64,000 nt of DNA from Promethearchaeota archaeon Loki_b31 (GCA_005222975.1 NJBI01000001.1:1-64000); one strand, 5' to 3'; positions 51,960 through 64,000 are shown, counted from the first letter of the stretch. Notes: generated by a model from the sequence alone, not told the origin. Numbers and translations: made by a program.

Positions 51960-53396
51960 TTACAAATTCCTTGAAGTAATAGATTTTAATTCATTAGAAA
52001 GTGTGTCATCAATAGGTTTTAAAGAAATTTTCTCAGCGAGTTTAGTCGCTTGCTCCTTTGCTCTTTTTCGTGCAGACTTAGAGCCATTCTCTTTCCAAGC
52101 GTCCCGAGACATGCGATCTATTACCGGACTAACTATAAAAAGCTCCTTTCTAAAAAGCTTTAAAGTCGTTGGATGCGAAAGTAATTCCTCTTTTTCATTG
52201 TAGTCCCTTAAAATTTCAGAAGCGAATGGAGTACCGTGATCTTCTACTCCTCTTAGGAGTCTTTTTACCATTCCTACTATTTCGTTATCAATTACTAATT
52301 TTTCAATGCTTTGAGTGGATTCAAAATCTAACATGCCAGGTCCCGAAATCATATTAATGCCAGCAAGTCCAGCTAAAAGTGCTCCCATACCTCCTTCGAA
52401 TCCTGCTTGAGCATCTGGAACTTTGGAGTCACTAAGACTCATGTAAGCATGAGTGGGCATTTTTAGAAATTTTCCTATCTCGACATCCCCCAAGTTAATC
52501 ATCATTGTTTCAATAGCTCCCATTGGAGTTGTACCTTGCTTCATATCTAATATTGCGGGTGATCCACCCCATATCAAAGGAGCTCCAGTTTTTGCTAACT
52601 GTCCAATTGCAACTCCTGCTAAGCATTCTGCAGAGTGTTGTGTTATTGAACCAATCAAGCTTATTGGAGCGCTAGCTCCTGCTAACGGCATAGACACAAA
52701 CTCAGATGGTATCATACTCTTGGCGGCATCGATAAGTGATTGAGAAGTCAGGTCTGACCACTTCAGCGGGGGACTAGGACAAACATCGAAGATCGCTAAA
52801 GGTTTCCTTGCTAAATCATCTTCTGATAATCGACAACTTAACAATAATTCTCTCATAATTGAAAAACTTTCCTTTCGAAACGTCCCGGTTACAACTGGTT
52901 TATAGCAATTAGATAATGCGATATATAACCTATGCCAATCTTGTGCGTGGTTGGGGACATCTTGATAAACTATAGCAGTGCTTTGAGCTTCGATATACTT
53001 TAAATGTTCTACTACCTTTGAAAAACGTACGAAATCTTTTTCGAACGCGTTTCTAATCGTTCCTGTATTTTCATCTAGATATAAGATCGCTGCTGAGCCA
53101 GGATCGTAATGAACATTATCGTTCGCTAAAGTAATATGCTCTTTTCCCTCTCTATCAAATAATTTAATCTCATCCGGAACAGTTTTGAGACATCTATCTA
53201 CTAAATCAGAAGGAATGAAGTATCGAGAACCCTCGTGATTAACTCCTTCGCTGTTAAATAATTCTTTAGCGTCCTCATTTTCTAAAAATATTCCTAGATT
53301 TTCTAAAATATCTTTAGCCTCATTGAATATCTTTATTTTATGATCCTCATCTAAGACATTAATTCTTGGTCTTAAAATTCCCATCCTAACATACAC
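51960..53396 (-). CDS. mttB: Trimethylamine methyltransferase (MttB/MtgB) family, non-pyrrolysine
   Basis: SPLKW-like PPLKW, AGASAPISLIG, AECLAG, DMKQG, SDSKVPDAQAG, EKLVIDNE; no in-frame amber codon. Likely start ATG 53384. Confidence 0.92.
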   Translation of the reverse strand: MYVRMGILRPRINVLDEDHKIKIFNEAKDILENLGIFLENEDAKELFNSEGVNHEGSRYFIPSDLVDRCLKTVPDEIKLFDREGKEHITLANDNVHYDPGSAAILYLDENTGTIRNAFEKDFVRFSKVVEHLKYIEAQSTAIVYQDVPNHAQDWHRLYIALSNCYKPVVTGTFRKESFSIMRELLLSCRLSEDDLARKPLAIFDVCPSPPLKWSDLTSQSLIDAAKSMIPSEFVSMPLAGASAPISLIGSITQHSAECLAGVAIGQLAKTGAPLIWGGSPAILDMKQGTTPMGAIETMMINLGDVEIGKFLKMPTHAYMSLSDSKVPDAQAGFEGGMGALLAGLAGINMISGPGMLDFESTQSIEKLVIDNEIVGMVKRLLRGVEDHGTPFASEILRDYNEKEELLSHPTTLKLFRKELFIVSPVIDRMSRDAWKENGSKSARKRAKEQATKLAEKISLKPIDDTLSNELKSITSRNL

Positions 53397-53408
53397 GCTC
53401 TCATTTTG

Positions 53409-54296
53409 TTAATTCTCTAGTGAATCTATAAGTTTTCTTATTTCTTTTATAGTTGCTGGAGACGTACCACAGCACCCTCCCACGATTTTGGCACCTATTT
53501 GAATAATTTCGTGAATATCGCTTACGAAATCCTTTATTGGTTGGTCGTAAACGGCTCTATTGTTTTGATCGATTCTTGGTTGACCCGCGTTAGGTTTTGC
53601 CGATATGGGTTTATTAGTAAGCTCTTTTAGTTCTTTTATTAATCCTATCATTTCATCGCTTCCTAATGTACAATTCGCTCCAATCACATCAACATTTCTA
53701 TCCTCTTGTATTCGCACGCACTTTTCTAAAGAATTGCCCATAATGGTAAAAAAACCCCTTTTTGTTTTTTTGTATGTCATTGAGCTTATAATGGGTTTTT
53801 TTGAAATCTCTCTTATCGCTTTTATCGCAGCTTCCATTTCTTCAATGTCTGAGATAGTCTCGATATGCCAGAGATCTACTCCTTGTTCTAAAAATTTTAC
53901 CTGTTTTACATAACTGGAAACCCATTGTTCGGCGGTTGCTTTTCCTACTGGAGGTTTAAATACACCAGATGGGCCAATATCGCCTACAATTAAACGATTG
54001 GGAGGGCAAGCTCTTTTTATATTTTTTAAGGCGCTCTCATTTAACTCTTTAATTTGGCTTTCAATTTTATAGCCTTGCAAATTTAAAAAGCTAGATCCAA
54101 AAGTACTTGTTTGGCACATATCTGCGCCTGCGTCGTAATAAGATTTATGTATCTCAAAAATTAAATCTGGTTGTTCGATATTAAGGGTATCGGGAAGTCT
54201 TCCTGGCGTGATTCCATGTTTAAATATCTCTGACCCCATTCCTCCGTCAAATAATATGATTTTCGAACCATTTTTTAACCAATCGTGGAATAACAT
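53409..54296 (-). CDS. Stand-alone homocysteine S-methyltransferase (MetH Hcy-binding domain)
   Basis: DGGMGS, AGAD, GDIGPSG, IET, GANC, PNAG, GGCCGT zinc ligands. Confidence 0.93.
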   Translation of the reverse strand: MLFHDWLKNGSKIILFDGGMGSEIFKHGITPGRLPDTLNIEQPDLIFEIHKSYYDAGADMCQTSTFGSSFLNLQGYKIESQIKELNESALKNIKRACPPNRLIVGDIGPSGVFKPPVGKATAEQWVSSYVKQVKFLEQGVDLWHIETISDIEEMEAAIKAIREISKKPIISSMTYKKTKRGFFTIMGNSLEKCVRIQEDRNVDVIGANCTLGSDEMIGLIKELKELTNKPISAKPNAGQPRIDQNNRAVYDQPIKDFVSDIHEIIQIGAKIVGGCCGTSPATIKEIRKLIDSLEN

Positions 54297-54322
54297 AGCA
54301 ATTTACCTCAAATAAGCGTTTT

Positions 54323-54970
54323 TTAAATTTTTAAAAGGTTCTTGACTAGATTAACAGCTTCTACGGCGCTACCAGCAAATCCATCTGCTTTGCACTCATC
54401 TACCCACGCGTTAGAAACTGGAGCACCCCCAAGTATAACTTTGAATTTGTCTCGGATGCCTTTAGATTCGAGTATTTCTATTATCTTTTTTTGGCCGATC
54501 ATAGTTGTAGTCAATAGAGCAGAAACTCCAATGATATCTGCATTCTTTTCAACAGCAATTTCGATAATTCTTTCAGCTGGAACGTCAGCGCCTAGATCAT
54601 AAACTTCAAAACCGTTGGCACTCAACATTGTAGCGACAATTGTTTTACCTATTGAGTGAATGTCTCCTTCTATTGTTGCAATTACCACTTTTCCATTCGA
54701 GATTCTATCTCTCTCTGTTTCTATATGTGGAAAAAGAATCTGCATAGACTCTTGCATAATAGTCCCACCAAGCATTAATTCCGGCAGAAAAAATTCTCCT
54801 TCGTCCCATAAAGCCCCTATTTTACGGATCCCCGCTCCAAAACCTTTCTCTATTACTTCAAGAAGATTCATATTTTCTTGAATTGCTTTATTGGCCAATT
54901 CAATAGTTTTTTCTTTATCAAGACTTACGATTGCTTCAGATATTTCTTCATAAAATTTATCATTAGACAC
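54323..54970 (-). CDS. Methyltransferase cognate corrinoid protein
   Basis: Cap domain (FFLPEL), EGDIHSIGK (DxHxxG), SALLTTT, GGAP; GTG start. Confidence 0.95.
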   Translation of the reverse strand: MSNDKFYEEISEAIVSLDKEKTIELANKAIQENMNLLEVIEKGFGAGIRKIGALWDEGEFFLPELMLGGTIMQESMQILFPHIETERDRISNGKVVIATIEGDIHSIGKTIVATMLSANGFEVYDLGADVPAERIIEIAVEKNADIIGVSALLTTTMIGQKKIIEILESKGIRDKFKVILGGAPVSNAWVDECKADGFAGSAVEAVNLVKNLLKI

Positions 54971-59054: not shown

Positions 59055-59318
59055 TTACTCGTCCTGATTTTCTGTGTTAAACTCAAGATTTAAACTTTCG
59101 GCAAGTTTAAACCCTACTTCAAAGAAGTTCTTCATCGATTTATAGAAGATATCTCCTATAATATCGCCTAATTCTGCATTAGGTTCAGACGATGTCTCAA
59201 TTTTTCCAGGGATATTTAATTCTTTTATAAGATCCTCTTTTCTTTGCTCTAATTCTTCGCTTAAACTGTTTAAATTTATTTGAAAATCGTTCAGTTCTGA
59301 ACTTTGGCTCTTTTCCAT
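59055..59318 (-). CDS. Small acidic helical protein homologous to N-terminus of adjacent PlsC-like protein
   Basis: ATG with upstream GAGGT; shares ETSSE-N and DxxxDIFYxxxKxxxxxGxxxxxxLxxE with 59346..60041. Confidence 0.7.
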   Translation of the reverse strand: MEKSQSSELNDFQINLNSLSEELEQRKEDLIKELNIPGKIETSSEPNAELGDIIGDIFYKSMKNFFEVGFKLAESLNLEFNTENQDE

Positions 59319-59345
59319 AATAAAACCTCATTTTTATGTTTAATT

Positions 59346-60041
59346 TTATGCTTCTTCAATATCGGGTTGTGGTTTAAGGGAATCAATAATTCTTAATATA
59401 TCCTCAGCGAGTTCATATCTCTCATCTCGATATTTTGGTCGAGATAATCGATTTTCTACCTTAAGCGGGGCCCCGATTTTTACTCTTAACCCCTGTGATT
59501 TAAACATACCTAAAATTTTCGCGTTTTCCGTGTATATTGCTATGGGGATTATAGGAGCCTTTCCAGCAACCGCAAATTTAATGATTCCCGCCATTGCTTT
59601 CACTTGAATTTCGGGGGTAAGTTTTGATTCTGGCGTCATGGCTACAAGATCCCCAACTTCGTTAAGATAGTGGAACACCTTATCTATAGGCACGGTATCG
59701 TCCTTATCGAGAGTACTGCGAAACATGCCTAACGACTTAAGAACGGGACCGTACATTTGATTCTTCATTAGTTTATGATGAACCATAAAATGAATTCTTC
59801 GTCCTGAAACTTGACTTATAATCGCCATGTCTCTTAACGCGTTGTCGCTTATCGTCGTTAATATCGCTTTTCCTATAGTAGGTATGTTTTCCCTTCCCTC
59901 AATTTTTAAGTCTGCGAATGCCGTTAAACCAAAGTTTCCTAAACCTTTGGTAACTGCGTAGAAAATATCTTGCATAAGATCCTTACTAAGCATCTTATCT
60001 TTTCCTTTCGTTTCGTTCTCCTCGGAAGATGTTTCAACCAT
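59346..60041 (-). CDS. PlsC/lysophospholipid acyltransferase-family protein with degenerate catalytic motifs
   Basis: IEGRENIP, RRIHFM, LKSLGMF, APIIPIAI, VKIGAPL. NHxxxxD appears as TISDNALRD and FPEGT as TPESK. Confidence 0.8.
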   Translation of the reverse strand: MVETSSEENETKGKDKMLSKDLMQDIFYAVTKGLGNFGLTAFADLKIEGRENIPTIGKAILTTISDNALRDMAIISQVSGRRIHFMVHHKLMKNQMYGPVLKSLGMFRSTLDKDDTVPIDKVFHYLNEVGDLVAMTPESKLTPEIQVKAMAGIIKFAVAGKAPIIPIAIYTENAKILGMFKSQGLRVKIGAPLKVENRLSRPKYRDERYELAEDILRIIDSLKPQPDIEEA

Positions 60042-60055
60042 CTTTTTTCCCTCGT

Positions 60056-60250
60056 TTATAGTTTGTCTATGAAATTATTAACTTCCTCCATCCGTCTCTC
60101 GTAATATTCCTTTAACTCTTTTTCGGAAACAAATGAAGGGATTACTTTTTCTAAATAAATATCAAATATTGTCGATAATTTTGTTTTATGCTGCAAGGAC
60201 TCGAGAAATTCTCCGCCCAAGTCCTTTAATTGCTTAAAAAATTCTGTCAT
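60056..60250 (-). CDS. Small helical hypothetical protein
   Basis: 64 aa, ATG start, ends 14 bp before the PlsC-like start. Confidence 0.65.
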   Translation of the reverse strand: MTEFFKQLKDLGGEFLESLQHKTKLSTIFDIYLEKVIPSFVSEKELKEYYERRMEEVNNFIDKL

Positions 60251-60411
60251 TTTGCTTCTCTTTTATTAAAAATTGGACAATATTTTAATAACTTTAGTAG
60301 ATATGTTTTTTCTTATTTTAATCAAATATTCGTTTATCTAATTTAAAGGTTGTAAATCCAATAATAGTTTGAAAAGTATGATATCAAAAGATTATAATAT
60401 TAAACTCGAAA

Positions 60412-61437
60412 TTAATCTACTTGATCCCATTTACCACAACGAGAGCCCCAGCGCGCTATAATTTTATTTCCCTCTTGAGGCATCTTTACTTGGACTATTT
60501 CGCAATTATTGGGACAGTCTCCGCAATTAAACGCTGAGGTTGTGAATTCAATTTCTGATACTTCGAGTCCTCGAAATACAGTTTGATGTTCGTGCTCTAA
60601 ATAGAAATCTCTAACTAAAATTGCCATTCCTAAAGCCCCCATTAGGACGTTATATTTAGGAACAATTACTTTGCAACCTAAATGTCTTTCAAATGCTTCA
60701 ATGATCCCTTCGTTGTAAGAAACGCCACCTTGGAACACAATGGGTTCTTCTAAGTCTTTACCCTTGCCTACATTATTCATATAATTGCGAACAAGAGAAT
60801 CGCATAAGCCTGCAATAATATCCTCCTTGGTGTAACCCGCGTTTTGCTTGTGAATCATATCGGATTCTGCGAATACAGTGCATCTTCCCGCAATACTCAC
60901 AGGATTTTTTGATTTTATAGCGTAAGCGCCAAACTCCTCTATAACAATCCCAAGCCTCGCTGCTTGATGATCGAGAAAGGAACCCGTTCCCGCAGCGCAT
61001 ACAGAATTCATCGCAAAATCTACAATTATTCCGTCCCGTAGAATGATAATTTTCGAATCTTGACCGCCAATTTCTAATATCGTTCTTACATCGGGATAGA
61101 TAGTCTGTGCCGCAACAGCGTGGGCAATTATCTCAGTTTTAGCGAGATCTGCACCAACGATTGCTTTTGTCAAATACCGTGCTGAACCTGTGGTACCACA
61201 ACAACGTATCGCGTATTCGCCTAAATTTTCGCTTTGTTCTATGTTATCGCGTAACTCTGCCATTCCTGCCTTGGCTGAGTCGATGGGAGAACCTCTATTT
61301 CGTAAAAATACGCTAGTAAGTAAATTTCCATCTGTATCCATTAGAACAAATTTGCAACTCACGCTTCCTATGTCAATACCAAGGAAAGCATCTTTTGTTT
61401 TTCCCTCTTTAACAACTTTTTCCTTAACTTCTACCAT
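60412..61437 (-). CDS. ATP-dependent [4Fe-4S] activator (BcrAD/BadFG/HgdC family) with C-terminal CxxCxxxC...C motif
   Basis: GIDIGSVSCK, TTGSAR, EIIAHA, EIGGQDSK, MNSVCAAGTGSFL, RCTVFAESD, FQGGV, CGDCPNNC...SRCGKW. Confidence 0.93.
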   Translation of the reverse strand: MVEVKEKVVKEGKTKDAFLGIDIGSVSCKFVLMDTDGNLLTSVFLRNRGSPIDSAKAGMAELRDNIEQSENLGEYAIRCCGTTGSARYLTKAIVGADLAKTEIIAHAVAAQTIYPDVRTILEIGGQDSKIIILRDGIIVDFAMNSVCAAGTGSFLDHQAARLGIVIEEFGAYAIKSKNPVSIAGRCTVFAESDMIHKQNAGYTKEDIIAGLCDSLVRNYMNNVGKGKDLEEPIVFQGGVSYNEGIIEAFERHLGCKVIVPKYNVLMGALGMAILVRDFYLEHEHQTVFRGLEVSEIEFTTSAFNCGDCPNNCEIVQVKMPQEGNKIIARWGSRCGKWDQVD

Positions 61438-61455
61438 ATAATCTCACCTTTATCA

Positions 61456-62646
61456 TTAAACCGAATTTTGAATTAATTGAACGCATTCATTATAAAATAA
61501 ATCGCCATAATGCGGATAAATCTTTTTATTACCATTTGCTATGAATTTGGCGTTATTTTCAATTTCTTTATTCCTACGACCATACATTAGGTCAGAAAAT
61601 GCTTCTAACCTAGTCCTGAAGCCAGCCAATCCGCTCTGCTCGTCGAAAGAGAAGTAAATAATAGGAAGGTCGTATATTCCCTTAAGTTTATTAGTTATAA
61701 TCGTTCGAGCCGTCACTTCCGGCATACATAAGAACGGATATTGATGAACGAATCCATCAAATCCCGCTTGAGCTTTGTCTATATATTCCCCTAGCACCCA
61801 TTGGCATTCCCCGCCAATATCCATCGGAACATAAGGTCGTGAAAGGTGTTCCAACCACTTTCTGTGATAATTTAAATGGAATTTATGGACAACCCAGTCG
61901 TATAAGCTTAAGCTCTGGTGTACTTCAATGTTCATCTCACCCAGCTTTCTACGGATATCTAAGTTTACGTAGGGTTCCAAACTAATGTGAATCTCTCCCG
62001 AAACCCCAACCCGTAGAGGATTTCGGGTTTTATCTGTATCTAAATTGCTAAAATCTTGCTTAATAACGCTTTTGAATTTTTTCAATTCTGGGAGCGTATT
62101 AGTTTGATCAAGCTTATTTAATAAGTTTTTAATTAAATCCGTCGTATCCCCCTGATTGCGCTCGTAAGCTCGGAAGATACCTTCAGCAGTTTGAATATCA
62201 TTTAATAGCTTAGCTTTTTTTATGAAAAAAATAACAGCCTTAACGAATTTTGTATACATAAACAAATCTTTTCGACCACTAACTTCTTGAAGAGTTTTGA
62301 CCCATTTGAAATCAAGTAAATCTGCTTGGTCTAAAGGAATTACAGTGATGTCTTTATAACCCATATCTTTTAAAATGCGTTCTTGGACGCTAGCATAAAA
62401 GCCAAATCTACACGGCCCGCAATCAATTGCCATGATCAGCGTATCTGCTCCTTTTTCTATAGCATTCACGAAATCCCCAATAGTCGCTTTAAACGGGAAG
62501 CACACAAATTCGGGGGAATACTTGACTCCGATTTTAATTGCTTCTCGATTCGTTGGATCTGGAATAATTACATCTAGACCAAGGCTTGTAAATAAGGTTT
62601 TGAAGGCTACCCAGTTGGGGCCCATATTGGGAAAAGAAATTATCAT
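61456..62646 (-). CDS. 2-hydroxyacyl-CoA dehydratase D (HGD-D)-like reductase subunit, PlsR-like
   Basis: SPEFVCFPFK, CGPCRFGFY, VSGEI, PFLCMPE, DEQSGLAGFRTRLEAF. Confidence 0.82.
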   Translation of the reverse strand: MIISFPNMGPNWVAFKTLFTSLGLDVIIPDPTNREAIKIGVKYSPEFVCFPFKATIGDFVNAIEKGADTLIMAIDCGPCRFGFYASVQERILKDMGYKDITVIPLDQADLLDFKWVKTLQEVSGRKDLFMYTKFVKAVIFFIKKAKLLNDIQTAEGIFRAYERNQGDTTDLIKNLLNKLDQTNTLPELKKFKSVIKQDFSNLDTDKTRNPLRVGVSGEIHISLEPYVNLDIRRKLGEMNIEVHQSLSLYDWVVHKFHLNYHRKWLEHLSRPYVPMDIGGECQWVLGEYIDKAQAGFDGFVHQYPFLCMPEVTARTIITNKLKGIYDLPIIYFSFDEQSGLAGFRTRLEAFSDLMYGRRNKEIENNAKFIANGNKKIYPHYGDLFYNECVQLIQNSV

Positions 62647-62891
62647 TTCTTGAAAAAATCCTCAAGTTAATAGTCAGTATCTTTGTTTAAAGAATTTAAC
62701 TTAATTTTACTCAATCAAGTATTTGATTAAATAAAAAATTACCCAATACAAACAGATTATCAATTGTATGATAATTTTAATAAAAAAACTGAGTAAAATT
62801 AATAAATAAATTGCATAGAAAAATTGAATTATAAGATTATTTCGTTTGATTTTTTAAAATGGTTTATAAAAAATAGTTAATGGTTATTTCA

Positions 62892-63959
62892 TTAAGCAGA
62901 TTTAATCGTTAATTTATTTCTTTTCCCAACTGTTAACCCCTTTTTCTTTCTTCGGATCATTTCGACAAAACTTTCTACTCTTGTGAGCAATCCGGCTTCC
63001 CCGCTGTGCTCGTCCATTATAATTTCTAAAAAGGGAAGTCCTACAATTTTCATGTCTCTCATGATCAGTTCAGAGATAAGGCTATCTGGTCCGCATGCGA
63101 AGCTGATTAAGAAAATTACGCCATCTATTTCGTCGCGTCCTTTAGTAAGGAAAAATCGAATAGCCTGCATAATTTCCTCTTCGTGTCTCCAATAATTTTG
63201 TAATTTTGCCCCTCTGGGGTTCACTATAACGGGCTTCTTGAAAATCGATTCTGGCAGATTTTCTATGGTAATGTGATCAACTCCTTGGTCTTTCAATTTT
63301 TTTTGAAAATCGAGGTTAATAAAAGTATCAAATATATTATAACCATGCCCTAATAGCAAAAATCGTATATCTCCTTCGCTTTTTCTTTTTGGTAAGGTAA
63401 AAGGGCGATTTCTTTCGACTAACCTTAAAGCGTGGTTAACTGAGGCGCCCTCTCTAAGAAACTCGTGATAATCGTCGAAATATTTTTGCGCTTCTTTATA
63501 AGCATTTAAGGCTTTGCTTTGGCTTTTCCCTAGTTGCTTTCCGAGTTCAACGGCAGCTGTCGATATTGGAAACTCTTTAACATTTACTTCAAAATTTAAA
63601 ATCCTTGGAACGCCAGGTAGAATTTTAATCACATCTGGTAAAGACAAAAATTTAGGGCAAAAGTACGAATCTTTTACTTCCGAAACATACCTAGGCACAA
63701 AAACAAAGTCTAAATCAGGATGATCTTTTACTAACCTTAAGAGTTGACCGTAATATATCTTGACTGGAATACACAACTCTCCGAATCCGTGTGTTACGCC
63801 CTCCTCAACGATTTTCTTGTTTGTAAGGGGACTTATAACGATTTCAGCGTCCAGTTCTTCCAGTAGTTTTTTCCAAAATGGAAAATATCTATAAAAATGA
63901 AGTGCCCTTGGTATCCCTACTTTGATCCGTTTCTTCTCTGTTTGTTGAAGTTCTTCCAT
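62892..63959 (-). CDS. DUF2229 acyl-CoA dehydratase activase-related protein (PlsA C-terminal domain-like)
   Basis: VGIPRAL, ELCIPVKIYYG, CPKF, SFACGPDS, DEHSGEAGLLTRVESF. Start moved to ATG 63959, which overlaps an upstream TAA (ORF track gives GTG 63968). Confidence 0.85.
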   Translation of the reverse strand: MEELQQTEKKRIKVGIPRALHFYRYFPFWKKLLEELDAEIVISPLTNKKIVEEGVTHGFGELCIPVKIYYGQLLRLVKDHPDLDFVFVPRYVSEVKDSYFCPKFLSLPDVIKILPGVPRILNFEVNVKEFPISTAAVELGKQLGKSQSKALNAYKEAQKYFDDYHEFLREGASVNHALRLVERNRPFTLPKRKSEGDIRFLLLGHGYNIFDTFINLDFQKKLKDQGVDHITIENLPESIFKKPVIVNPRGAKLQNYWRHEEEIMQAIRFFLTKGRDEIDGVIFLISFACGPDSLISELIMRDMKIVGLPFLEIIMDEHSGEAGLLTRVESFVEMIRRKKKGLTVGKRNKLTIKSA

Positions 63960-64000
63960 TAATTCCACTTAAATTCTCGTTTAGGCATCTGGGCTGTCGT
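63959..64000 (-). CDS. 3' end of an upstream gene running off the window
   Basis: Open frame ...TTAQMPKREFKWN* whose TAA overlaps the ATG of the DUF2229 gene (TAATG coupling). Confidence 0.4.
   Translation of the reverse strand, partial: TTAQMPKREFKWN

What the first reader, a model, noticed from the sequence alone, without database searches (positions are those of the whole stretch)
59055..64000. Split plasmalogen/ether-lipid synthase-like (PlsA/PlsR/Ger) cluster next to a PlsC-like gene in an Asgard-type archaeon
Seen: six co-oriented genes - DUF2229 protein, HGD-D-like reductase, BcrAD/BadFG ATP-dependent activator with a C-terminal CxxCxxxC...C motif, a 64-aa protein, a PlsC-family protein and an 87-aa protein. 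Another gene is apparently coupled upstream (TAATG at 63957..63961). Known: activator + DUF2229 + HGD-D domains make up the anaerobic plasmalogen synthase PlsA/PlsR of Clostridium and the glycerol ester reductase Ger of Thermotoga, which reduce acyl esters on glycerolipids to vinyl or alkyl ethers. Inference: an archaeon with isoprenoid ether lipids may carry a module that makes or remodels fatty-acyl glycerolipids into ether lipids, relevant to the lipid divide. The acyltransferase neighbour is what favours a lipid substrate over an acyl-CoA substrate.
Basis: partly seen in the sequence, partly recalled or inferred. Interest (0 to 1): 0.85.

Follow-up and report, generated by a model that had tools for sequence, protein, structure and literature searches.

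The report
Lokiarchaeial acyltransferase operon with PlsA-like reductase
This Lokiarchaeia (Asgard) genome keeps its only fatty-acyl-transferase genes in one operon with a removable four-gene, ATP-driven iron-sulfur enzyme distantly related to the bacterial enzymes that turn ester lipids into ether lipids, which gives a defined gene set, also present in both cultured Lokiarchaeia, for testing whether these archaea make non-archaeal lipids.

Summary
The six minus-strand genes are real. They are part of a larger operon that runs past the window edge: HAD phosphatase, a two-domain PlsC, then A (DUF2229), B (DUF2229-like), a stand-alone activase, a 64-aa protein, a PlsC-fold protein without the catalytic His, and an 87-aa protein.

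A, B and the activase line up module for module with the 1,400-aa fused PlsA/Ger-type proteins. They share three invariant Cys per module and the CxxCxxxC..C motif after the activase domain. However, they belong to a separate split A-B-Act subfamily, only 19-25% identical to fused proteins, that also occurs in bacteria without PlsC neighbours. They are not canonical 2-hydroxyacyl-CoA dehydratases; this genome has eight of those elsewhere.

Linkage to PlsC and HAD genes holds across the class, including P. syntrophicum MK-D1 and L. ossiferum. All PF01553 domains of the genome lie in this operon. A-B-Act-s64 behaves as a cassette: three near-complete sister genomes lack it but keep the acyltransferase genes.

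My best reading is an optional tailoring enzyme that acts on the ester made next door, most likely converting ester to ether. This is unproven, and MK-D1 lipid data show only isoprenoids.

This scan has found the same operon before in at least 8 other genomes.

The parts
63981..64000 (-). 3' end of the two-domain PlsC acyltransferase (dPlsC, 561 aa). The gene continues beyond the window to contig position C61:65666. The HAD phosphatase (260 aa) lies at C61:65672-66454.
   Evidence: two PF01553 stretches at 171 bits, with HESHLD/FPESTRS and HNSEWD/YPEGTTN motifs. HAD_2 scores 87 bits. The stop codon TAA is at 63983-63981.
62892..63959 (-). Subunit A (355 aa; 358 aa from the GTG at 63968). It is a DUF2229 module with three invariant Cys (C63, C101, C289) and corresponds to module 1 of fused PlsA/Ger-type proteins.
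   Evidence: The AF2 model has pLDDT 92, and its nearest solved folds are HadBC, DCCP and BzdNO.
62647..62891 (.). 245-bp AT-rich (18% GC) gap between A and B. The proximal 164 nt (62647-62810) are conserved in sister genomes. The distal part is a variable insertion site. Two palindromes lie at 62757-62774 and 62713-62728.
   Evidence: Other genes are inserted here in other genomes. Many MAG contigs break here.
61456..62646 (-). Subunit B (396 aa). It is the second catalytic module, with invariant C49, C79 and C307, and corresponds to module 2 of fused PlsA/Ger-type proteins.
   Evidence: (24% identity, E 1.7e-14 to P0279 residues 1016-1367).
60412..61437 (-). Stand-alone BcrAD/BadFG activase (341 aa) with a C-terminal CxxCxxxC..C motif encoded at 60436-60525.
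   Evidence: The motif is shared with bacterial split activases and with fused proteins at about residue 606.
60056..60250 (-). s64, a 64-aa helical protein with no Cys. It is probably a fourth component of the A-B-Act module.
   Evidence: It is 44-66% identical in families f1 and f2. Small ORFs of 61-84 aa follow the activase in f3, L. ossiferum, MK-D1 and an Omnitrophota locus. It is lost together with A-B-Act in genomes lacking the cassette.
59346..60041 (-). xPlsC, a 231-aa PlsC-fold protein that lacks the HX4D His and the FPEGT block. It is a conserved pseudo-acyltransferase.
   Evidence: It is retained next to dPlsC in genomes without A-B-Act.
59055..59318 (-). s87, an 87-aa acidic protein with no family match that travels with xPlsC.
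   Evidence: 43-91% identical orthologues lie downstream of xPlsC.

Best explanation
A, B, the activase and probably s64 form an ATP-driven, low-potential iron-sulfur enzyme of the DUF2229 branch of the 2-hydroxyacyl-CoA-dehydratase / benzoyl-CoA-reductase superfamily. Bacterial PlsA/PlsR and Ger belong to the same branch.

Inferred from the families: the activase dimer uses ATP to inject one electron into the A/B heterodimer, where each subunit holds a [4Fe-4S] cluster on three Cys. This produces a ketyl-type radical at a carbonyl.

Shown: the four genes are a removable cassette inside the only PlsC-type acyltransferase operon of Lokiarchaeia, arranged as HAD, PlsC domains, [A-B-Act-s64], xPlsC, s87.

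Inferred: the substrate is therefore most likely the oxygen ester that the neighbouring acyltransferases put on a glycerol(-phosphate) backbone, with the HAD enzyme removing a phosphate. The cassette would be an optional tailoring step. The most plausible reaction is reduction of the ester to a vinyl or alkyl ether, as PlsA/PlsR and Ger do, but the product is not shown.

I give about 0.5 for 'acts on the operon's acyl ester' and about 0.35 for 'makes an ether lipid'.
For: Module-for-module collinearity with 1,410-1,450-aa fused BB-DUF2229 proteins: A aligns to module 1 and B to module 2.

Three invariant Cys per module across split and fused forms, plus many shared invariant residues.

The CxxCxxxC..C motif after the activase domain is shared by split and fused forms.

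In the tree, true HGD-D proteins of the same genome form the outgroup (99), and A-type and B-type clades each contain both split and fused forms.

The fold of A matches HadBC, DCCP and BzdNO.

All three PF01553 domains of the genome lie in this operon.

Synteny of PlsC(s) and HAD with A-B-Act holds in families f1-f7, with A 42-95% identical. The PlsC genes appear as 1+1, 2-domain or 3-domain forms, with 4-nt overlaps or gaps of about 12 nt. This includes L. ossiferum CP104013 and MK-D1 CP042905.

Two other DUF2229 systems are inserted at the same spot between the acyltransferase genes in sister genomes: a Ger-like BB-DH fusion of 985 aa with a ~470-aa partner, and a FAD_binding_4-A' fusion with Act' and B'.

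The cassette is cleanly absent in G267, G270 and G234 (99-100% complete), while HAD-dPlsC-xPlsC-s87 remain. That pattern fits a late, optional modification.

Published work shows Ger converts sn-1 esters to alkyl ethers when expressed anaerobically in E. coli (PMC13159169).
Against: A and B are only 19-25% identical to fused PlsA/Ger-type modules, and they sit in a sister clade rather than inside it.

Bacterial members of the same split subfamily show no PlsC neighbours in 6 of 6 contexts. One Clostridial genome has both a split set and a fused gene, which suggests the two have different jobs.

I could not obtain validated PlsA, PlsR or Ger sequences, so the fused family is anchored only by architecture and by the papers' domain descriptions.

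No protein in the cluster has a predicted membrane helix.

MK-D1 lipids after ether cleavage showed only phytane and biphytanes (PMC7015854, PMC11316595).

The site between dPlsC and xPlsC also takes unrelated insertions: a deaminase-family ORF, a 3-hydroxyacyl-CoA dehydrogenase and a small ORF.

Outside this class, A-like genes and PlsC genes occur without each other.

Confidence: 0.5

Rival explanations
1. The enzyme is a thioester-directed dehydratase or reductase of the classical kind, acting on a 2-hydroxyacyl-CoA or a related acyl-CoA in fermentation or fatty-acid metabolism. On this reading the PlsC genes only use the resulting acyl-CoA.
For: The superfamily chemistry and fold match. 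NCBI names these proteins 'acyl-CoA dehydratase activase-related'. Thiolase, 3-hydroxyacyl-CoA dehydrogenase and acyl-CoA synthetase genes lie near the locus in two sister genomes. A LarA-type 2-hydroxyacid racemase homologue sits in the f7 operon.
Against: A and B match only the last ~60 positions of the HGD-D model. The genome has eight full-length HGD-D proteins with their own 262-aa activase elsewhere. The operon contains no CoA-transferase and no 2-hydroxyacid dehydrogenase. A and B are closer to PlsA/Ger-type modules than to HGD-D proteins.
Confidence: 0.15
2. The co-location is partly accidental. The space between dPlsC and xPlsC is an insertion hot spot, and the A-B-Act-s64 cassette has a function unrelated to the acyltransferases, as it may have in bacteria.
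For: Unrelated genes occupy the same spot in sister genomes. Many contigs break there. Bacterial homologues have varied neighbours and no PlsC. A-like genes in families f13 and f18 occur without any PF01553 gene.
Against: The linkage survives changes in PlsC gene number and domain fusion across seven families at 42-50% identity, with overlapping or nearly abutting genes. Three different DUF2229-type systems all land next to the acyltransferases.
Confidence: 0.12
3. The enzyme modifies an ester of a different kind made by the PlsC domains, and the outcome is not a fatty-alkyl ether membrane lipid. Examples would be an isoprenoid-acid or hydroxyacyl ester, or an acylated head group or small molecule.
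For: All cluster proteins lack membrane helices. The HAD enzyme is of the small-molecule phosphatase type: phosphoglycolate phosphatase and PpaX-like models score best. MK-D1 shows only isoprenoid chains (PMC7015854).
Against: There is no direct evidence for any alternative acceptor. The PlsC domains score best against 1-acylglycerol-3-phosphate acyltransferase models.
Confidence: 0.1

Closest known systems
Ger, glycerol ester reductase (Thermotoga maritima Tmari_0479; Desulfatibacillum alkenivorans SHJ90043), and the 1,410-1,450-aa fused BB-DUF2229 proteins of Firmicutes
   Same: The same domain set (BcrAD_BadFG, DUF2229, HGD-D C-terminal piece) occurs in collinear order. Each module has three invariant Cys. 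The CxxCxxxC..C motif follows the activase domain. The organisms are anaerobes.
   Different: Here there are three separate proteins plus a small one, and one activase domain instead of two fused ones. Identity is only 19-25%, and the placement is a sister clade, not inside the fused clade. The activity is untested. I had no validated Ger sequence to compare.
PlsA/PlsR anaerobic plasmalogen synthase (Clostridium perfringens Q8XL48/Q8XL47; single-gene form in Enterococcus faecalis Q835P9)
   Same: It is a multi-gene form of the same superfamily branch that acts late on a finished diacyl lipid. The cassette-like, dispensable behaviour seen here fits such a tailoring role.
   Different: The closer Lokiarchaeial counterpart of a PlsA+PlsR pair is the 985-aa BB-DH protein plus its ~470-aa partner found in sister genomes. 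This genome lacks that pair.
Bacterial split A-B-Act gene sets (for example Anaeromonas frigoriresistens and an Omnitrophota MAG)
   Same: They have the same three genes in the same order, at 30-47% (A), 31-56% (B) and 53-65% (activase) identity. An Omnitrophota set and one from an unnamed bacterial-looking contig (L078) nest inside the Lokiarchaeial clade. A small ORF follows the activase in the Omnitrophota locus.
   Different: They have no PlsC or HAD neighbours. Their function is unknown, and I found no paper on them.
(R)-2-hydroxyisocaproyl-CoA dehydratase HadBC with activator HadI; double-cubane cluster protein DCCP; BzdNO
   Same: They share the fold (Foldseek E 1e-10 to 1e-8, TM about 0.5), an ATP-dependent activase and Cys-ligated Fe-S clusters.
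   Different: Sequence similarity is confined to the last ~60 residues. A has three Cys, not the six or more of a double cubane. No CoA-ester pathway genes are nearby.

Membership tests
HAD/BCR superfamily (ATP-dependent radical dehydratases and reductases) | Dedicated BcrAD/BadFG-type activase | tested here: met
   PF01869 at 165 bits and TIGR00241 at 199 bits, above the 125.4-bit cut-off.
HAD/BCR superfamily (ATP-dependent radical dehydratases and reductases) | Two homologous catalytic subunits, each with Cys ligands for an Fe-S cluster, and the HadBC-like fold | tested here: met
   Three invariant Cys in A and three in B. The AF2 model of A (pLDDT 92) is nearest to 3O3M/3O3N, 7YYL and 8S02. 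B was not modelled.
True 2-hydroxyacyl-CoA dehydratase (HgdAB/HadBC; Pfam HGD-D) | Full-length match to HGD-D (342 positions) | tested here: not met
   Only positions 282-342 match (27.6 and 16.2 bits). Eight full-length HGD-D proteins lie elsewhere in the genome.
True 2-hydroxyacyl-CoA dehydratase (HgdAB/HadBC; Pfam HGD-D) | Pathway partners nearby (CoA-transferase, 2-hydroxyacid dehydrogenase) | tested here: not met
   Neither is among the operon genes or flanks.
PlsA/PlsR/Ger (fused DUF2229 family) | DUF2229 domain followed by an HGD-D C-terminal piece, present twice | tested here: met
   A scores 147 bits on DUF2229 and B 44 bits. Both carry the HGD-D C-terminal piece. They are collinear with P0279.
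PlsA/PlsR/Ger (fused DUF2229 family) | Two tandem activase domains fused to the first DUF2229 module ('BBD', conserved in all alkyl-ether producers according to PMC13159169) | tested here: not met
   There is one stand-alone 341-aa activase, and nothing is fused.
PlsA/PlsR/Ger (fused DUF2229 family) | Phylogenetic placement inside the fused family | tested here: not met
   The split-A clade (89) is sister to fused module 1 plus the Loki BB-DH (95). The split-B clade (96) is apart from fused module 2. This is a quick tree with long branches. Identity is 19-25%.
PlsA/PlsR/Ger (fused DUF2229 family) | Similarity to the validated proteins (Q8XL48, Q8XL47, Q835P9, Tmari_0479) | not tested
   No tool could supply these sequences. 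The fused family was represented by named Firmicutes proteins P0279, P0309, P0310 and P0342.
PlsA/PlsR/Ger (fused DUF2229 family) | Ester-to-ether activity on glycerolipids | not testable with these tools
   This needs expression and lipid analysis.
PlsC / LPLAT acyltransferases (PF01553) | HX4D and (F/Y)PEGT catalytic blocks | tested here: not met
   This applies to the in-window 231-aa protein, which reads TISDNALRD and TPESK, conserved in 8 orthologues. The upstream dPlsC meets both blocks in both of its domains.
Double-cubane cluster protein (DCCP) | Six or more Cys for an [8Fe-9S] cluster in one subunit | tested here: not met
   A has exactly three Cys. B has three invariant Cys.

The most novel reading that the evidence does not exclude
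Lokiarchaeia and some other Asgard lineages may have a second, 'ester-first' route to ether lipids. In this route a PlsC- or PlsY-type enzyme esterifies a chain (fatty or isoprenoid) to glycerol phosphate, and the A/B/activase enzyme reduces that ester to an ether. In lineages without a recognisable GGGP synthase, this would be how the first ether bond is made. Those lineages include the MK-D1 genus and families f12, f13 and f18, all of which carry A-like genes.

Several points weigh against this. Family f1, including this genome, has both GGGPS and the cassette. Families f14-f17 have only weak or divergent GGGPS matches and rarely carry A (0-33% of genomes), and f25 lacks both GGGPS and A. 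No PlsY gene lies next to A-B in the f13 and f18 loci I inspected.
Probability: 0.07. Interest if true: 0.95.

Novelty: new variant of a known kind. Interest (0 to 1): 0.64.

Why it matters
The 'bacterial-type' PlsC genes of Lokiarchaeota are often cited in the lipid-divide and eukaryogenesis debate. They are taken as a hint that the archaeal host could make ester lipids.

Here those genes turn out to be the only PF01553 genes of the genome. Across the class, they are wired into one operon with an enzyme from the same superfamily branch as the bacterial ester-to-ether converters.

If the cassette does what PlsA and Ger do, the expected product is a fatty-alkyl or alkenyl ether glycerolipid, not a plain ester phospholipid. 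That would change what lipidomics should look for.

The operon is present in both cultured Lokiarchaeia, and natural cassette-minus relatives exist. The question is therefore directly testable with a defined gene set. It would also assign a first function to a widespread, unstudied bacterial split subfamily.

Tried and rejected
- Complex prediction of A + B + xPlsC, with xPlsC as partner, gave no support (score 0.01). I use it neither for nor against binding.
- Jackson et al. 2021 (PMC7812594) is not held, and the Ger paper has no supplements held. I therefore had no validated PlsA, PlsR or Ger sequences. I ran no further search on a search that might not have returned them.
- NCBIfam has no model that hits A, B or the ~470-aa partner.
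- Sequence search of the PDB with B gave only noise.
- I rejected the idea that A/B are ordinary HgdAB-type dehydratases.
- I rejected a DCCP-type double cubane on Cys count.
- I rejected the 'TAATG' translational coupling.
- I looked for PlsY next to A-B in families f13 and f18 and found none.
- The first tree script lost its answer; the kept tree was re-read.

Full report
**What is there.** The window is contig C61:1-64000 of a 3.5-Mb, 92%-complete genome.

Pfam and NCBIfam give the following assignments:
- A (355 aa): a full DUF2229 domain plus the last 60 positions of HGD-D.
- B (396 aa): a weak N-terminal DUF2229 match plus the same HGD-D tail.
- A 341-aa BcrAD/BadFG activase.
- A 64-aa and an 87-aa protein, neither with a family match.
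- A 231-aa PF01553 protein.

Reading on past the window edge shows two further genes immediately upstream. One is a 561-aa protein with two complete PlsC domains, and the other is a 260-aa HAD phosphatase. The in-window PlsC-like protein has lost the HX4D His and the FPEGT block, and this loss is conserved in all eight orthologues aligned.

**Which organism.** The homologues of A with the highest scores are 77-95% identical and come from Promethearchaeota/Lokiarchaeota MAGs. The genome sits in a family that is sister, within the same order, to the family holding the cultured strains.

**What family the enzyme belongs to.** Five observations place it.
1. A and B are not classical 2-hydroxyacyl-CoA dehydratases. 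The genome has eight full-length HGD-D proteins and a separate 262-aa HgdC-type activase on other contigs. A and B are the genome's only DUF2229 hits.
2. An exhaustive phmmer search with A found 2,613 relatives. The closest non-Asgard ones are stand-alone ~330-aa proteins or 700-770-aa A-B fusions. In bacteria these sit in the same A-B-Act order, for example in Anaeromonas, an Omnitrophota MAG and several metagenome contigs.
3. The Anaeromonas genome also has a 1,426-aa fused protein, P0279, with two activase domains and a DUF2229 domain scoring 310 bits. This is the architecture the Ger paper describes for PlsA/Ger (PMC13159169). A aligns to its module 1 and B to its module 2.
4. Bit scores fall in a clear order:

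| Comparison with A | Bits |
|---|---|
| Asgard orthologues | 278-602 |
| Bacterial split A | 167-315 |
| Loki BB-DH module | 88 |
| Fused module 1 | 57-66 |
| True HGD-D proteins | 36 or less |

5. A quick IQ-TREE run, rooted on the genome's own HGD-D proteins, gives an A-type and a B-type clade. In each, the split forms stand apart from the fused forms; on the A side the fused module 1 plus the Loki BB-DH is sister to the split clade. Lokiarchaeial A and B lie in the split clades, with two bacterial rows nested among them. The branches are long and the supports are SH-aLRT only.

Three Cys per module are invariant across split and fused forms. The CxxCxxxC..C motif after the activase domain is shared by both. 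An AF2 model of A (pLDDT 92) is nearest to HadBC, DCCP and BzdNO.

The trio is therefore a member of the DUF2229 branch and matches PlsA/Ger part for part. It belongs, however, to a distinct, uncharacterised split subfamily.

**The linkage with acyltransferases.** All three PF01553 domains of this genome are in this operon. BLAST of the eight operon proteins against fetched 20-kb neighbourhoods gave the following arrangements:

| Group | Gene order |
|---|---|
| Four other genera of the family (g2, g10, g11; scattered in g6), and family f2 with two single PlsC genes | HAD - dPlsC - A - B - Act - s64 - xPlsC |
| Family f3 | PlsC - PlsC - A - B - Act - small ORF |
| Families f5-f7 | Three-domain PlsC (872-876 aa), LarA-like gene (seen in the one f7 locus examined), HAD fusion, A - B - Act |

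In these groups A is only 42-50% identical, and the genes overlap or nearly abut. The f3 loci include 'Ca. Lokiarchaeum ossiferum' (CP104013) and Promethearchaeum syntrophicum MK-D1 (CP042905). Two-domain PlsC proteins have only 252 relatives, and the best 120 listed are Asgard or unnamed sediment-metagenome proteins.

Across 400 Asgard genomes, PF01553 and A co-occur in all seven families of this class. Elsewhere they separate. Families f14-f17 have PlsC with little A, and f13 and f18 have A-like genes without PlsC.

**A cassette.** In three near-complete sister genomes (G267, G270, G234), the order is HAD - dPlsC - xPlsC - s87. A, B, Act and s64 are missing together, and in two of these genomes a deaminase-family ORF takes their place.

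In other sister genomes, further DUF2229 systems are inserted at the same spot after A:
- A 985-aa BB-DH fusion with a ~470-aa partner. This pair groups with the fused PlsA/Ger family in the tree.
- A FAD_binding_4-A' fusion with its own activase and B'.

This genome has neither. Many MAG contigs break in the A|B gap, with B and the activase starting another contig. The 164 nt upstream of B are conserved, while the rest of the gap varies.

From this I infer that s64 belongs with A-B-Act, and that xPlsC and s87 belong with the acyltransferases. I also infer that the acyltransferase pathway works without the cassette. That is what one expects of a late tailoring step such as PlsA or Ger.

**Mechanism.**
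- Inferred from the families: the activase, probably a dimer, uses ATP to push an electron into the A/B heterodimer, generating a ketyl-type radical at a carbonyl.
- Inferred from context: the carbonyl is the oxygen ester made by the PlsC domains on a glycerol(-phosphate) backbone, with the HAD enzyme removing a phosphate.
- Not shown: that the outcome is a vinyl or alkyl ether.

**Evidence against the lipid reading.**
- Identity to the fused family is low.
- Bacterial members of the subfamily lack PlsC neighbours.
- A split set and a fused gene coexist in one Clostridial genome.
- No cluster protein has a predicted membrane helix.
- MK-D1 yielded only phytane and biphytanes after ether cleavage (PMC7015854, PMC11316595). 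A 2026 paper notes that this method could have missed ester lipids (PMC13400652).
- The insertion site also accepts unrelated genes.

**What is already known.** PlsC and PlsY homologues in Lokiarchaeota have been published (PMC6737245, and Villanueva 2017 as cited there). 'Ger homologs' in Lokiarchaeota, including MK-D1, were reported in 2022 from a DIAMOND screen (PMC13159169). I found no paper describing the split A-B-Act subfamily, its operon with PlsC and HAD genes, or its cassette behaviour. 'DUF2229' occurs in only four held papers. [quoted passage not shown] This scan has found the same operon before in at least eight other genomes, with similar conclusions.

**A side pattern.** Canonical GGGP synthase (PF01884) is present in this genome and in most of its family. 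It is absent or marginal in the MK-D1 and L. ossiferum genera and in families f12, f13 and f18, all of which carry A-like genes. Families f12, f13 and f18 also carry multi-copy PlsY, which the MK-D1 and L. ossiferum genera lack. This allows a low-probability 'ester-first' route to ether bonds. Families with both genes, families with neither, and the lack of PlsY adjacency all weigh against it.

**Verdict.** This is a new variant of a known kind: a split, cassette-borne relative of PlsA/Ger wired to the only PlsC genes of Lokiarchaeia. The idea is testable in cultured strains, and the function is unproven.

Noticed in passing
window 62647-62891; L039:10598-11424; L040:10568-11318: The gap after A is an insertion hot spot. 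It is 3-14 nt in some genera, 245 nt here and 828 nt in a 95%-identical sister genome. Many MAG contigs end there. The 164 nt upstream of B are conserved (95% and 80%) and hold two palindromes (TTATCAtacaatTGATAA and AATCAAatacTTGATT), which may be a regulator site.
   Followed up: partly
L040:11319-16095; L041:4707-9501; L042:1-4441: Some sister genomes carry a second system between A and B: an 806-837-aa fusion of a FAD_binding_4 (VAO/GlcD/AGPS-type) domain to an A-like module (42% identical), followed by its own activase (54%) and B-like subunit (40%). This genome does not have it.
   Followed up: partly
L043:11019-15404; L046:10891-13848; L007:13073-17070: In another genus, a 985-aa protein (two activase domains plus DUF2229, Ger/PlsA-like) and a ~470-aa partner with no Pfam hit follow A directly. 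One closed genome (G189) has this pair but no B or activase orthologue.
   Followed up: partly
G000:C49:7630-10239 (L062:871-3480): Two tandem PlsY-family (PF02660) genes of ~400 aa, about twice the bacterial length, with an unassigned C-terminal half. Next to them lie two short ORFs that look like pieces of one alpha/beta-hydrolase gene.
   Followed up: no
400 Asgard genomes: At family level, lineages lacking a clear GGGP synthase (PF01884) nearly all carry PlsY and/or PlsC homologues. About 150 genomes with GGGPS carry almost none. Families f13 and f18 have 3-8 PlsY copies, A-like genes and no PlsC.
   Followed up: partly
L097 (CP042905.2:332633-343892): MK-D1 has a 308-aa PF01553 acyltransferase directly upstream of A-B-Act and a HAD gene 2 kb downstream. 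[quoted passage not shown]
   Followed up: yes
L081:4465-15125: In a family of the same class, the operon reads: three-domain PlsC, LarA-type racemase homologue (458 aa), HAD fusion (488 aa with an unassigned C-terminal half), A, B, activase, then a radical-SAM protein with an HMPTM zinc ribbon.
   Followed up: partly
L101:8066-8680; L102:8311-8919: In two 100%-complete sister genomes, a ~200-aa Toxin-deaminase-family ORF sits where the A-B-Act-s64 cassette would be.
   Followed up: partly
L057:10644-11435 (L. ossiferum): The second of the two single PlsC genes of L. ossiferum also lacks the HX4D His (it reads NSQSTLD). Pseudo-acyltransferases therefore recur in this operon.
   Followed up: no
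L067 (Omnitrophota MAG); L078 (contig with YbeY and Ddl): Two bacterial A-B-Act sets nest inside the Lokiarchaeial clade (40-47% for A and 44-56% for B). This suggests transfer between Lokiarchaeia and bacteria.
   Followed up: partly
L087:1533-11102; window 51960-54970: In another Asgard class, an A-B pair lies upstream of an MttB / B12-binding / homocysteine-methyltransferase cluster and a geranylgeranyl reductase. A similar MttB cluster lies about 4-7 kb from the operon in this window.
   Followed up: no
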